A stretch of 32,000 nt of DNA from NCBI GenBank assembly GCA_025839675.1, contig CP104013.1, forward strand, positions 2,520,001 to 2,552,000, read 5' to 3'. A program made the translations under genes and the position numbers. This stretch comes from Candidatus Lokiarchaeum ossiferum. Lineage in GTDB: Archaea > Asgardarchaeota > Lokiarchaeia > Sigyniarchaeales > Promethearchaeaceae. This document shows, piece by piece, positions 29,760 through 30,780 of the stretch; position 1 is the stretch's first letter; every line of letters begins with the position of its first letter. The notes under the pieces are model-generated. The model made no database searches and was not told where the DNA came from. It was given only the letters and a program-made list of their open reading frames with translations.

Positions 29760-30755
29760 TTAAACTTGCAAGAAGAGTTCGAGGAATGATTGAACTAAAT
29801 TAAATTGTGATAAATAACTCCATTGAGAAAATAAGTAAGGTTTAATTTCGCGATTGAATATATCCAACCAAGCTAATCTCCCTAAGCGATCGGATATGAC
29901 GTTTTTATAGATTTCAAATACATTTTTGAATACTAATATGAGATTTTCTTGATCCAGTCCCACTAAATCTTTACTGAAAATATTAGTTGCCTTCATTTTA
30001 TCAAACTGGATAGAATTTTCTTCAATTGAGATTTTAGGAAGGTATAACTCCGATATTTGTAAATAAATTTGATCATCTTGGGAATGCAACCAGTTATTCA
30101 ATTCCAAGGAATAATGAGATAATTTAATCAATATTTGGCTATAAGATTTCTGGGAAAACTGTGTTTTAATGATTCGAATAAATATAATAAAGATTTGTTG
30201 AAAAATGCCTAATATGTCAAAAATATCCCCCAAATCCATCATTTGATTTGCTTGGATCCATTGAGCTTTTAATAAGTCGAGTACATCAACAAAATTTTTG
30301 AACGGATTTATATTCGAAGACCAAGATTTCCAAAAATCGGGGGTAATTTGATAGGTTTTTATAAACATCCGTTTGATAACATCTAATCGGGAGAGCATTA
30401 ATTTTGCATTTCCCGTTTTTGGTCCTGCACCCACCACCATTAAATTACATGGGAGAGAGTATGAATAGACCCATCGAAGTCCGCCCATATCGATATTTTC
30501 TATGCCTTGTTCTTCAAGTTCAAATTCAGAAAAGTGATTTAAAGCCGAGAGAAGTCCAGAAATTAACACCCCATCAAGTTGGAGATCTTTATTACAATGA
30601 TGATAGAAAATGAGTTTAGAAGTCTGCTTCTCAATAATCCATAGATATTGAATTAAATCATCTCCATTATCCTCACACATTTCTCGCCCATACGCTGATC
30701 GCGAGGGTTTGTATTTTATATCTTGAGAATTTTGGATTTCTAAACTGTTTTCCAT
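29760..30755 (-). CDS. protein with an N-terminal longin/roadblock-like domain and a C-terminal helical domain, unknown function
   Basis: IQYLWIIEKQTSKLIFYHH..DGVLISGLLSALNHFSEF..IENIDMGGLRWVYSYSLPCNLMVVGAGP..NAKLMLSRLDVIKRMF reads as the b1-b2-a1-b3-b4-b5-a2 order of longin domains. The ATG at 30755 is preferred over the TTG at 30770, and the ATG at 30680 is also possible. Confidence 0.6.
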   Translation of the reverse strand: MENSLEIQNSQDIKYKPSRSAYGREMCEDNGDDLIQYLWIIEKQTSKLIFYHHCNKDLQLDGVLISGLLSALNHFSEFELEEQGIENIDMGGLRWVYSYSLPCNLMVVGAGPKTGNAKLMLSRLDVIKRMFIKTYQITPDFWKSWSSNINPFKNFVDVLDLLKAQWIQANQMMDLGDIFDILGIFQQIFIIFIRIIKTQFSQKSYSQILIKLSHYSLELNNWLHSQDDQIYLQISELYLPKISIEENSIQFDKMKATNIFSKDLVGLDQENLILVFKNVFEIYKNVISDRLGRLAWLDIFNREIKPYLFSQWSYLSQFNLVQSFLELFLQV

Positions 30756-30780
30756 TCTACATGGTAACAAGTAAGGTAAG

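What the first reader, a model, noticed from the sequence alone, without database searches (positions are those of the whole stretch)
29760..30770. Stand-alone protein with an N-terminal longin-like (Mon1/Fuzzy/sigma-adaptin-style) domain and a ~195-aa helical C-terminal region
Residues ~38-140 in ORF-track numbering (nt 30351-30659) follow the longin order. They run IQYLWIIEKQ (b1), KLIFYHH (b2), GVLISGLLSALNHFSEF (a1), IENIDMGG (b3), LRWVYSYS (b4), NLMVVGAGP (b5), then NAKLMLSRLDVIKRMFIKTY (a2). From memory, the local wording resembles the first longin domain of Mon1/Fuzzy-type RabGEF subunits and the sigma-adaptin/Sec22 pattern: a hydrophobic b1, a G..s.l.a...F helix, then 'g.. ..f.y....l.lv.v......a...L..i...F'. 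The remaining ~195 aa are mostly helical and I do not recognise them. Longin-domain proteins are hallmark eukaryotic signature proteins reported from Asgard archaea. This particular architecture is not one I can place.
Basis: inference. Interest (0 to 1): 0.65.

Follow-up and report, generated by a model that had tools for sequence, protein, structure and literature searches.

The report
Asgard longin protein with orphan helical domain
This is a real gene from an Asgard archaeon that fuses a eukaryote-style "longin" domain, of the kind that docks small GTPase switches, to a helical domain unlike any known structure; it belongs to a widespread but unstudied Asgard-only family.

Summary
The ORF at 29760-30770 (-) is real. 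The likely start is the ATG at 30755, giving 331 aa. Foldseek then returns only longin/roadblock proteins: TRAPP Bet5/Trs23, σ/μ-adaptin, ζ-COP, MON1, VAMP7, LAMTOR and MglB.

The window protein itself has no Pfam hit. Homologs hit Intu_longin_1 and Fuz_longin_1, and the family profile matches stand-alone Asgard longins at 99.7% HHalign probability. Those stand-alone longins best match MON1 LD1 in PDB, and some are fused to Arf/Rag-like GTPases.

The longin domain runs to about residue 166. The remaining ~165 aa form a confident all-helical bundle with no match in Pfam, PDB or BFVD. That domain was found only inside this architecture.

The family has hundreds of members. All are from Asgard MAGs and all are named "hypothetical protein". 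It is not a tri-longin RabGEF subunit (one longin domain, no SxRxD elbow motif) and not a FLCN-type GAP longin (no GP motif, no DENN domain). The window copy belongs to a divergent long-form clade that lies outside the gene neighbourhood conserved for the main clade.

The most likely role is a longin platform for a small GTPase; this is inferred, not shown. I rate it a new variant of a known kind, of moderate interest.

The parts
29760..30770 (-). Whole ORF (336 codons from TTG at 30770). The likely true CDS is 29760-30755 (331 aa, ATG start; stop codon at 29760-29762).
   Evidence: P0001, the called product, is 331 aa. Homolog P0002 shares the MENS... start.
30663..30755 (-). N-terminal extension, residues 1-31. 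It is predicted disordered and is present only in the closest (long-form) relatives.
   Evidence: pLDDT is below 50 for residues 1-30. Most family members begin directly at β1.
30258..30662 (-). Longin domain, residues 32-166, with topology β1-β2-α1-β3-β4-β5-α2-α3.
   Evidence: DSSP on the model. Foldseek matches to longin proteins. HHalign to stand-alone Asgard longins at 99.7%, E 2.8e-26, over query residues 32-166. Translation checked.
30516..30572 (-). Helix α1 (GVLISGLLSALNHFSEFEL), the most conserved helix of the domain. In Mon1-Ccz1 and TRAPP the equivalent helix forms the dimer interface and the GTPase-binding surface.
   Evidence: Conservation. Role of α1 in Mon1-Ccz1 and TRAPP from PMC5216073. 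Translation checked.
30465..30503 (-). β3-turn-β4 hairpin signature IENIDMGGLRWVY. M90, G91-G92, W95 and Y97 are near-invariant. Position 94 is R or K in 149 of 166 sequences. Drosophila MON1 reads AGGIKF at the aligned position.
   Evidence: MON1 alignment. Translation checked.
29763..30257 (-). C-terminal all-helical domain, residues 167-331. It is joined to the longin domain through one continuous long helix (155-199).
   Evidence: Domain-only AlphaFold2 model with pLDDT 82 and pTM 0.72. No significant match in Pfam, PDB sequences, PDB structures (best E 3.4) or BFVD.
30198..30263 (-). Family signature QW-x13-FD-x2-G-x-FQ at the domain junction. W166, D180 and Q186 are conserved at 91% or more across 166 sequences. 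It overlaps the most hydrophobic segment of the protein, IFDILGIFQQIFIIFIRII.
   Evidence: Translation checked.
30006..30071 (-). Insertion specific to the long-form clade (about residues 229-250: a short helix plus a β-hairpin). It is absent from the ~281-aa short-form members.
   Evidence: Alignment columns 255-275. DSSP.

Best explanation
The gene encodes a two-domain protein with no signal peptide or clear transmembrane segment, so it is probably cytoplasmic or peripherally membrane-associated. It belongs to a family found only in Asgard archaea. Residues 32-166 form a single longin domain whose sequence is closest to the first longin domain of MON1/FUZ/HPS1 and CCZ1/INTU/HPS4. Residues 167-331 form a compact helical bundle with no detectable relative. 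The two domains are joined by one long continuous helix. These points are shown: the fold, the family, its Asgard restriction, and the fact that the C-domain was found only together with this longin. The following is inferred. The longin domain probably works as longin domains usually do. It would pair with a second longin (itself or a paralog) through the β3 edge strand and helix α1, and the paired α1 surface would then dock a small Arf-, Rag- or Rab-like GTPase. The protein would act as a nucleotide-exchange-type regulator, scaffold or effector. The helical domain would supply the family-specific function, such as partner binding or membrane contact.
For: Fold: ββαβββαα topology, and Foldseek returns only longin/roadblock proteins. 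Sequence: homologs hit Intu_longin_1 and Fuz_longin_1. The family profile matches stand-alone Asgard longins at 99.7% HHalign probability. Those stand-alone longins hit Fuz_longin_1 in 16 of 30 cases, and their best PDB sequence match is MON1 LD1 at E 6e-4. GTPase link by domain fusion: among the nearest relatives of the N-domain are 300-312-aa longin-GTPase fusions (P0139, P0149, P0154) with Arf, Ras, Roc or Gtr1/RagA hits. Liu et al. (10.1101/2020.10.19.343400) and PMC10933270 already describe that architecture in Asgard archaea. Conservation pattern: the most conserved N-domain positions lie on α1 and the β3-β4 hairpin. Those are the elements that form the dimer interface and Rab-binding surface in Mon1-Ccz1 and TRAPP (PMC5216073). 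Paralog pairs exist in several genomes: a tandem pair at 72% identity, the two MK-D1 copies at 53%, and clade A/B pairs at 42-46%. This is compatible with heterodimers.
Against: There is no direct evidence for dimerisation, GTPase binding or any activity. No GTPase, roadblock or second longin gene lies in the window or within 10 kb beyond it. No GTPase is found in the conserved neighbourhood of the main clade either; that neighbourhood holds a CitMHS permease and two orphan proteins. The MON1-specific elements, helix α0 and the SxRxD elbow loop, are absent. The preference for MON1 over other longins is weak: Foldseek E-values for TRAPP, adaptin, COPI and MON1 all lie between 5e-4 and 2e-3. Longin domains also have roles unrelated to GTPases. 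PMC10933270 notes that Asgard GTPase genes rarely sit beside their longin or roadblock partners, so the lack of synteny neither supports nor refutes the model.
Confidence: 0.5

Rival explanations
1. The protein has a role unrelated to GTPases. The longin domain would serve as a regulatory or adaptor module, as in SNARE longins or coat small subunits. Alternatively the protein regulates a membrane transporter or metabolite pathway, with the helical domain doing the main work.
For: In about 57 of 85 loci the short-form orthologs sit in a conserved same-strand string: a 92-aa coiled-coil protein, a 163-aa orphan, the family gene, then a CitMHS/ArsB-type permease (PF03600, 8.5e-49). Glutamate dehydrogenase and a gltD-like gene follow on the opposite strand. 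Pairwise identity among the family proteins in that string falls as low as 31%, so the arrangement has survived considerable divergence. No GTPase is present in that neighbourhood. σ-adaptin, ζ-COP and VAMP7 longins score as well as MON1 in Foldseek.
Against: The window copy is not in that neighbourhood and the window has no homolog of the three partner genes. Intergenic gaps are moderate (median 80 and 173 bp), so co-transcription is not established. No SNARE or Synaptobrevin motif was detected in any member, and there is no C-terminal membrane anchor. The nearest relatives of the N-domain include GTPase fusions.
Confidence: 0.25
2. The protein is a GAP-type longin related to FLCN, SMCR8 or NPRL2. 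A conserved arginine would act as a catalytic finger on an Arf- or Rag-like GTPase.
For: A basic residue is strongly conserved at the start of β4, just after the GG turn (R or K in 149 of 166 sequences). [quoted passage not shown]
Against: The GP motif before β2, which PMC12290439 reports as specific to GAP longins, is absent in 0 of 166 sequences. There is no DENN-like or NPRL2-type C-terminal domain; the C-domain is all-helical with no match. No NPR2, NPR3 or folliculin Pfam hit appeared in any member. No FLCN, NPRL2 or SMCR8 chain is among the top 50 Foldseek hits. MON1, a GEF subunit, also carries a basic residue at the aligned position (AGGIKF), so that residue is not diagnostic of GAP activity.
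Confidence: 0.07
3. The protein is anchored in or on the membrane through the very hydrophobic conserved helix (IFDILGIFQQIFIIFIRII). It would then be a monotopic or hairpin membrane protein that presents a longin domain at the membrane surface.
For: The 19-residue Kyte-Doolittle mean for that helix is 2.11 in the window protein. It is at least 1.6 in 62 of 166 family members. It is also the most conserved part of the C-domain.
Against: The family median of the maximum is 1.52, below the usual 1.6 threshold, and only 3 of 166 members reach 2.0. The helix carries near-invariant D180 and Q186. AlphaFold2 places it with pLDDT above 90 inside a compact bundle with pTM 0.72, which is what one expects of a buried core helix. 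There is no second hydrophobic segment and no signal peptide.
Confidence: 0.1
4. The N-domain is not a longin. It would be a roadblock/LC7 domain or another α/β sandwich such as V4R, GAF or profilin.
For: Roadblock proteins (MglB, LAMTOR) appear among the Foldseek hits from rank 14 downward. Longin, roadblock and profilin share a common core (PMC10933270).
Against: Roadblock domains begin with an N-terminal helix. Most family members start directly at β1 (MNIWILE...) and have two helices after β5, which is the longin arrangement. The top-ranked matches are longins. No V4R, GAF or profilin appears in the top 50. The Pfam hits are to longin families only.
Confidence: 0.04

Closest known systems
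First longin domain (LD1) of tri-longin-domain RabGEF subunits MON1/FUZ/HPS1 (Pfam PF19036) and CCZ1/INTU/HPS4 (PF19031)
   Same: It has the same fold and topology. These are the only curated sequence families that recur among homologs and nearest relatives. MON1 is the best PDB sequence hit of the linking profile, and MON1 chain 8c7g_C shows the highest sequence identity among the Foldseek matches (21% over 98 columns). The two share a G-G-hydrophobic-basic-aromatic hairpin motif. The conserved α1 and β3 elements correspond to the Mon1-Ccz1 dimer and Rab-binding interface.
   Different: This protein has one longin domain, not three. An all-helical domain replaces LD2 and LD3. It lacks the Mon1 α0 helix and the SxRxD elbow-loop motif (0 of 166). 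It is 280-330 aa long, against more than 500 aa for the eukaryotic subunits. A heterodimer partner and GEF activity have not been shown.
Stand-alone Asgard longin proteins (~135-142 aa) and Asgard longin-Arf/Rag-like GTPase fusions (described in Liu et al. 2020/2021 and Tran et al. 2024, PMC10933270)
   Same: They are clear homologs of the N-domain: HHalign 99.7%, E 2.8e-26, 129 columns, including the W-G-N...F..F α2-α3 region. The taxonomic range is the same.
   Different: Those proteins end after α3, or continue into a GTPase domain. This family instead continues into the ~165-aa helical domain, which was found only in this architecture.
TRAPP longin subunits Bet5/TRAPPC1 and Trs23/TRAPPC4, σ/μ-adaptin N-domains and ζ-COP
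   Same: These are the top-ranked structural matches (Foldseek E 5e-4 to 1e-3, TM-score normalised to target up to 0.64). In TRAPP the paired α1 helices form the Rab-binding platform.
   Different: Sequence identity is only 12-17%. Sequence hits to Sybindin or Clat_adaptor_s are absent or occasional and weak. None of the other TRAPP, adaptor or coatomer subunits is nearby. None of those proteins has the helical C-domain.
Longin-domain GAP subunits FLCN, SMCR8, C9orf72 and NPRL2, and their Asgard look-alikes (PMC12290439)
   Same: Both have an N-terminal longin followed by a second domain, and both have a conserved basic residue in the longin domain.
   Different: This family has no GP motif (0 of 166). 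Its second domain is all-helical rather than DENN or NPRL2-C. There are no sequence or structural hits to these proteins.

Membership tests
Longin domain (SNARE-like superfamily) | β1-β2-α1-β3-β4-β5-α2-α3 order with no helix before β1 | tested here: met
   DSSP on the AlphaFold2 model. Most family members start at β1. α3 is aligned to stand-alone longins.
Longin domain (SNARE-like superfamily) | Structural similarity to solved longin domains | tested here: met
   All top 50 Foldseek PDB matches are longin or roadblock proteins. The best E is 5.5e-4, probability is 0.99-1.00, and TM-score normalised to the target is 0.44-0.65 for single-domain targets.
Longin domain (SNARE-like superfamily) | Match to curated longin sequence profiles | tested here: met
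   The match is indirect. The window protein itself has no hit. Among 39 homologs, 4 hit PF19031 and 3 hit PF19036. The family links at 99.7% HHalign probability to stand-alone longins, of which 16 of 30 hit PF19036 (best 1.5e-9). One relative scores 34.9 bits against the 26.1-bit cutoff.
Tri-longin-domain RabGEF subunit (Mon1/Ccz1, Fuzzy/Inturned, HPS1/HPS4) | Three consecutive longin domains | tested here: not met
   There is only one longin domain. Residues 167-331 are helical apart from one small β-hairpin at 241-250, and they have no longin match.
Tri-longin-domain RabGEF subunit (Mon1/Ccz1, Fuzzy/Inturned, HPS1/HPS4) | [quoted passage not shown] | tested here: not met
   S.R.D is found in 0 of 166 sequences in the α2-α3 region. 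No helix precedes β1.
Tri-longin-domain RabGEF subunit (Mon1/Ccz1, Fuzzy/Inturned, HPS1/HPS4) | Obligate heterodimer with a paralogous longin subunit | not testable with these tools
   Paralog pairs exist in other genomes. None was found in the window or within 10 kb. No multimer prediction tool was available.
Tri-longin-domain RabGEF subunit (Mon1/Ccz1, Fuzzy/Inturned, HPS1/HPS4) | Nucleotide-exchange activity on a Rab-type GTPase | not testable with these tools
   This needs biochemistry.
Longin GAP subunits (FLCN / SMCR8 / C9orf72 / NPRL2) | GP motif in the loop before β2 (PMC12290439) | tested here: not met
   GP is found in 0 of 166 sequences at positions 38-52. The consensus there is S-[DE]-S-G-[IVT]-x-L.
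Longin GAP subunits (FLCN / SMCR8 / C9orf72 / NPRL2) | Catalytic arginine finger in the longin domain | tested here: inconclusive
   R or K94 is conserved in 149 of 166 sequences. Structural equivalence to the finger could not be checked. MON1, a GEF subunit, has K at the aligned position.
Longin GAP subunits (FLCN / SMCR8 / C9orf72 / NPRL2) | DENN or NPRL2-type domain after the longin | tested here: not met
   The C-domain is all-helical. There are no Pfam or Foldseek matches to DENN or NPR2.
Roadblock/LC7 (MglB, LAMTOR, Robl) | α-β-β-α-β-β-β order with an N-terminal helix | tested here: not met
   There is no N-terminal helix and there are two C-terminal helices. Roadblock proteins rank below longins in Foldseek.
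Longin SNAREs (Sec22 / Ykt6 / VAMP7) | SNARE motif followed by a membrane anchor after the longin domain | tested here: not met
   No Synaptobrevin or SNARE Pfam hit appeared in 39 full-length or 20 C-domain sequences. The C-domain is predicted as a compact bundle. There is no C-terminal hydrophobic anchor.

The most novel reading that the evidence does not exclude
This family could be a surviving archaeal form of the catalytic longin module that gave rise to eukaryotic tri-longin RabGEFs (Mon1-Ccz1, Fuzzy-Inturned, BLOC-3). Paralog pairs, such as clades A and B or the tandem copies, would form heterodimers. These would act as the still-unidentified native exchange factors for Asgard Arf-, Rab- or Rag-like GTPases. 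The orphan helical domain would be a new membrane- or partner-targeting fold.
Probability: 0.1. Interest if true: 0.8.

Novelty: new variant of a known kind. Interest (0 to 1): 0.42.

Why it matters
Asgard archaea encode many eukaryote-like small GTPases. Their native regulators are still unknown: PMC11914678 states that the identities of the regulators of Asgard Arfs remain to be established, and a structure-based search for Sec7-type GEFs found none. Longin and roadblock proteins are the obvious candidates. This family is widespread in Asgard archaea, well conserved, annotated only as "hypothetical protein" wherever a source names it, and closest in sequence to the catalytic longin of MON1/FUZ-type RabGEFs. 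That makes it a defined, testable candidate. Its C-terminal domain is a confidently predicted fold with no known relative, which is of interest in its own right. Set against this, longin domains are already a well-known and very abundant Asgard feature (41 predicted in one Loki genome; 130 roadblock/longin asCOGs). The finding therefore adds one architecture to a known theme rather than opening a new one.

Tried and rejected
- Direct Pfam and NCBIfam scans of the window protein gave nothing even at E<=10.
- Family-profile searches against PDB sequences gave nothing for the full length. For the C-domain they gave only noise, such as phage T4 gp15 at E 0.1.
- Foldseek with the C-domain model against PDB (best E 3.4; DOCK10 DHR-2 and SH3BP5 appear only at probability 0.03-0.04) and against BFVD (best E 1.9) gave no usable match.
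- SNARE-like reading of the 45-residue helix: rejected. There is no SNARE profile hit, and the helix is predicted as part of a compact bundle.
- NPRL2- or FLCN-type longin: rejected on the GP-motif and domain tests.
- TPR neighbour (26134-28227) as a longin-like partner: hhalign probability 0.3%, and no Pfam or PDB hit for its C-terminal part.
- Upstream 219-aa neighbour as a family relative: probability 0.1%. It is not significantly similar to the PadR gene next to the Harpocratesius homolog.
- Synteny as a clue for the window copy: the window copy and its closest relatives share no conserved neighbours.
- The 163-aa partner conserved in the main clade was tested as a possible longin or roadblock: hhalign probability 0.35%, with no Pfam or PDB hit.
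- I could not determine whether the window's own genome carries additional paralogs or which asCOG the family belongs to. The source genome was not among the genome-scan hits.
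Full report
**1. The observation**

The window has 31-39% G+C. A 336-codon ORF occupies 29760-30770 on the minus strand. The first in-frame ATG is at 30755. It gives the 331-aa product that public gene calls report (P0001) and that the 84%-identical homolog P0002 shares (MENS...). All residue numbers below refer to this 331-aa form. 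Residue n maps to window bases 30756-3n to 30758-3n on the minus strand, and four translations confirmed this mapping.

The AlphaFold2 model was built with 39 homologs and has mean pLDDT 76. It gives β 37-42, β 48-53, α 62-80, β 87-90, β 93-100, β 105-112 and α 117-135. After that it is helical, apart from a small hairpin at 241-250.

**2. The ORF is a real, conserved gene**

- The first homology search found 39 proteins with E from 1e-183 to 6e-16. All are 230-350 aa, and every named one comes from a Lokiarchaeota or Promethearchaeota MAG.
- The exhaustive profile search found 720 cluster representatives at E<=1e-3 and 59 at E<=1e-30.
- A scan of species-representative genomes found 199 coding matches. 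These include Promethearchaeum syntrophicum MK-D1, Candidatus Harpocratesius repetitus, and MAGs labelled Hod-, Hermod-, Odin-, Hel- and Asgardarchaeia.
- Two contigs carry non-Asgard labels, Bathyarchaeota and Nanopelagicaceae. The Nanopelagicaceae contig has the typical Asgard gene order, so it is probably misbinned.
- The window product's longest contig is 6,035,313 bp. That size fits Candidatus Lokiarchaeum ossiferum, whose genome is about 1.6 Mb larger than that of MK-D1 (PMC9834061). This identification is an inference, because sources for the window's own protein are masked.

**3. The N-terminal domain is a longin**

- Topology. Most family members start directly at β1 (MNIWILE...), so there is no N-terminal helix. 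Two helices follow β5. This is the longin arrangement, not the roadblock one (PMC10933270).
- Structure. All 50 listed Foldseek matches in PDB are longin or roadblock proteins: TRAPPC1/C4 and Bet5/Trs23, σ- and μ-adaptins, ζ-COP, MON1 (8c7g_C, 8jbe_C, 9lol_B), Mon1-Ccz1 core chains, VAMP7, LAMTOR and MglB. E-values run from 5.5e-4 to 7e-3, and only the N-domain is aligned.
- Sequence. The window protein has no Pfam or NCBIfam hit. Among its 39 homologs, the only biologically coherent recurring families are PF19031 Intu_longin_1 (4 members, best 1.4e-5) and PF19036 Fuz_longin_1 (3 members).
- Link through relatives. Beyond the full-length family, the exhaustive search finds many ~135-142-aa proteins that match only profile positions 1-127.
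  - An alignment of 30 of these (A3) matches the family profile at 99.7% HHalign probability (E 2.8e-26) over residues 32-166.
  - Sixteen of the 30 hit Fuz_longin_1, best 1.5e-9.
  - The best PDB sequence hit of the A3 profile is MON1 LD1 at E 6e-4. Weak, non-significant matches to a VAMP7-like longin, Bet5 and an SRX domain follow.

The longin assignment is therefore solid. The specific affinity to MON1/FUZ-type LD1 is the best-supported sub-assignment, but it is weak.

**4. Domain limits and conserved features**

The HHalign match runs through α2, a W-[DS]-G-N...F..F linker and the first turns of the long helix, ending at Q165-W166. The resulting domain map is:

| Region | Residues | Window bases (minus strand) |
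|---|---|---|
| N-terminal extension (disordered, long-form clade only) | 1-31 | 30663-30755 |
| Longin domain | 32-166 | 30258-30662 |
| C-terminal helical domain | 167-331 | 29763-30257 |

I built a weighted 166-sequence alignment. The most conserved N-domain positions are W39, helix α1 (L64, S66, G67, L69, A71, F75, E79) and the β3-turn-β4 hairpin I-E-S-I-[ED]-M-G-G-L-R-W-V-Y. M90, W95 and Y97 are each conserved in at least 158 of 166 sequences, and position 94 is R or K in 149 of 166. Drosophila MON1 reads AGGIKF at the aligned position.

In the Mon1-Ccz1-Ypt7 and TRAPP-Ypt1 structures, the central β-strands and the antiparallel α1 helices form the dimer, and the paired α1 surface binds the Rab (PMC5216073). 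The conservation pattern in this family fits that usage. This is an inference.

**5. The C-terminal domain**

- Modelled alone with 20 homologs, it is a confident helical bundle with pLDDT 82 and pTM 0.72.
- It has no significant match in Pfam, PDB sequences, PDB structures (best E 3.4, probability at most 0.13) or BFVD (best E 1.9).
- A profile search with this domain alone returned 531 proteins. The 120 listed are all 193-331 aa, mostly 276-281 aa, and none has a precomputed Pfam domain. Every one that a source names is called "hypothetical protein" and is attributed to an Asgard MAG, apart from one entry labelled "subsurface metagenome". The domain therefore appears confined to this architecture.
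- Its signature is QW-x13-FD-x2-G-x-FQ, with W166, D180 and Q186 conserved at 91% or more.
- The same stretch is the most hydrophobic part of the protein. Its 19-residue Kyte-Doolittle mean is 2.11 here, the family median of the maximum is 1.52, and 62 of 166 members reach 1.6. The conserved polar residues and the high-confidence packing suggest a buried core helix. Membrane insertion is kept as a minor rival.

**6. Family structure and gene context**

A neighbour-joining tree of members from 85 loci shows three main groups:

- a large clade of ~281-aa proteins;
- a sister clade of ~281-aa proteins;
- a divergent group that contains the window protein, the 326-330-aa Harpocratesius-type proteins and, as neighbours, the MK-D1 copies.

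Long forms share an insertion at about residues 229-250.

In about 57 of 85 loci the first clade sits in a conserved same-strand string: a 92-aa coiled-coil protein, a 163-aa protein, the family gene, then a 434-aa CitMHS/ArsB-type permease. A UDP-sugar dehydrogenase, a rhomboid and a membrane protein lie upstream. Glutamate dehydrogenase and a gltD-like gene lie downstream on the other strand. Family proteins in that string are as little as 31% identical to each other. The intergenic gaps have medians of 80 and 173 bp. The 163-aa partner has 25 invariant positions, but it has no Pfam or PDB match and no relation to longins.

The window copy is not in this string, and the window has no homolog of those partners and no second family copy. 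Its neighbours are:

- a convergent GH18 protein;
- a 219-aa protein 150 bp upstream on the same strand, with only sub-threshold winged-helix similarity;
- a 697-aa TPR protein.

Beyond the window edge lie an MFS transporter, an FMN reductase and a giant NosD/β-helix protein. No GTPase, roadblock or longin gene lies within about 10 kb.

Several genomes carry two copies: a tandem pair at 72% identity, the MK-D1 pair at 53% identity and about 3 kb apart, and clade A/B pairs at 42-46% identity in three MAGs.

**7. Mechanism**

- Shown: the fold, the family, its taxonomic restriction and the exclusive domain pairing.
- Inferred: a longin platform that dimerises through α1 and β3 and docks a small GTPase, with the helical domain supplying a family-specific function.

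Support beyond the fold comes from the closest multidomain relatives of the N-domain. These are longin-GTPase fusions with Arf, Ras, Roc or Gtr1/RagA hits, an architecture already described in Asgard archaea. The lack of GTPase synteny is not informative, because Asgard GTPase genes are generally not in operons with longin or roadblock genes (PMC10933270).

Confidence is about 0.9 that this is a longin-plus-orphan-domain protein of an Asgard family, and about 0.5 for the GTPase-platform function.

**8. Comparison with known families**

- It works most like the LD1 module of tri-longin RabGEFs or the TRAPP longin pair, but it is not a member of the tri-longin family. It has one longin domain, no α0 helix and no SxRxD elbow motif (0 of 166).
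- It is not a FLCN/SMCR8/NPRL2-type GAP longin. It has no GP motif (0 of 166) and no DENN or NPRL2-C domain (criteria from PMC12290439).
- It is not a roadblock protein, on topology.
- It is not a longin SNARE, because it has no SNARE motif or anchor.

**9. Novelty and score**

Longin domains are a well-known, highly expanded Asgard feature. Tran et al. cite 41 predicted in one Loki genome, and Liu et al. count 130 roadblock/longin asCOGs. L. ossiferum is reported as enriched in them. The presence of a longin is therefore not new, and this family is probably already inside an asCOG, although I could not map it.

I found no description in the searchable literature of three things: this specific architecture, its orphan helical domain, and the conserved neighbourhood of its main clade. 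I rate it a new variant of a known kind, with interest 0.42. It gives a concrete candidate for the still-unknown regulators of Asgard small GTPases (PMC11914678), but no function has been demonstrated.

Noticed in passing
L011-L084 (e.g. L013:4442-8300; L040; L022): In about 57 of 85 loci the short-form orthologs lie in a conserved same-strand string: a 92-aa coiled-coil protein, a 163-aa protein, the longin-helical gene, then a 434-aa CitMHS/ArsB-type permease. A UDP-sugar dehydrogenase, a rhomboid and a 227-aa membrane protein lie upstream. GDH and a gltD-like gene lie downstream on the opposite strand. The window copy lies outside this string.
   Followed up: partly
L041:766-1257 and 58 other loci (alignment A4): The 163-aa protein immediately upstream of the short-form genes is itself an orphan. 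It has 25 invariant positions but no Pfam hit, no PDB hit and no relation to longins (hhalign probability 0.35%).
   Followed up: partly
L005:408-2680; L010:6007-10518: One MAG (HM1_B6_4) has two tandem long-form paralogs that are 72% identical. MK-D1 has two copies, 53% identical and about 3 kb apart, flanking a CitMHS-type gene. Three MAGs carry one clade-A copy and one clade-B copy (42-46% identity).
   Followed up: partly
window 30922-31581 (-): A 219-aa ORF lies 150 bp upstream on the same strand. It has only sub-threshold winged-helix similarity (Sta1 at 0.014, PadR at 0.042). The Harpocratesius homolog has a PadR gene upstream in divergent orientation, but the two proteins are not significantly similar (BLASTP E 1.0 or worse).
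   Followed up: partly
window 26134-28227 (-): A 697-aa protein has TPR repeats at about residues 87-383 and an unassigned C-terminal region of about 300 aa. That region has no Pfam or PDB hit and no detectable relation to the longin family.
   Followed up: partly
window 1265-8367 (-): A compact run of aromatic amino-acid biosynthesis genes on one strand: chorismate synthase, type I dehydroquinase, dehydroquinate synthase, EPSP synthase, prephenate dehydratase-ACT, prephenate dehydrogenase, and a DAHP synthase-chorismate mutase fusion.
   Followed up: no
window 12961-14023 (+): Overlapping genes for an Ada-type Zn-binding/AraC-HTH protein and an O6-methylguanine-DNA methyltransferase. This is a bacterial-style adaptive-response pair in an Asgard genome.
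   Followed up: no
window 21350-22183 (-): A strong match to aminoglycoside 3-N-acetyltransferase (PF02522, E 5e-86), next to a SpoU-type RNA methyltransferase gene. It may be a horizontally acquired resistance-type gene.
   Followed up: no
window 30198-30254 (-), residues 168-186 region: The conserved helix IFDILGIFQQIFIIFIRII has a 19-residue Kyte-Doolittle mean of 2.11, in the range of a transmembrane segment. It nevertheless carries near-invariant D and Q residues and is modelled as a buried bundle helix.
   Followed up: partly
L057 (DATKTW010000010.1) and L008 (WJJB01000367.1): Contigs labelled Nanopelagicaceae bacterium and Bathyarchaeota carry family members. L057 has the full Asgard-type gene string, so it is probably a misbinned Asgard contig.
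   Followed up: no
window 17668-19503: Two neighbouring genes encode proteins with C-terminal zinc-ribbon domains. One of them (18484-19503, minus strand) also has two 2TM domains (PF13239).
   Followed up: no
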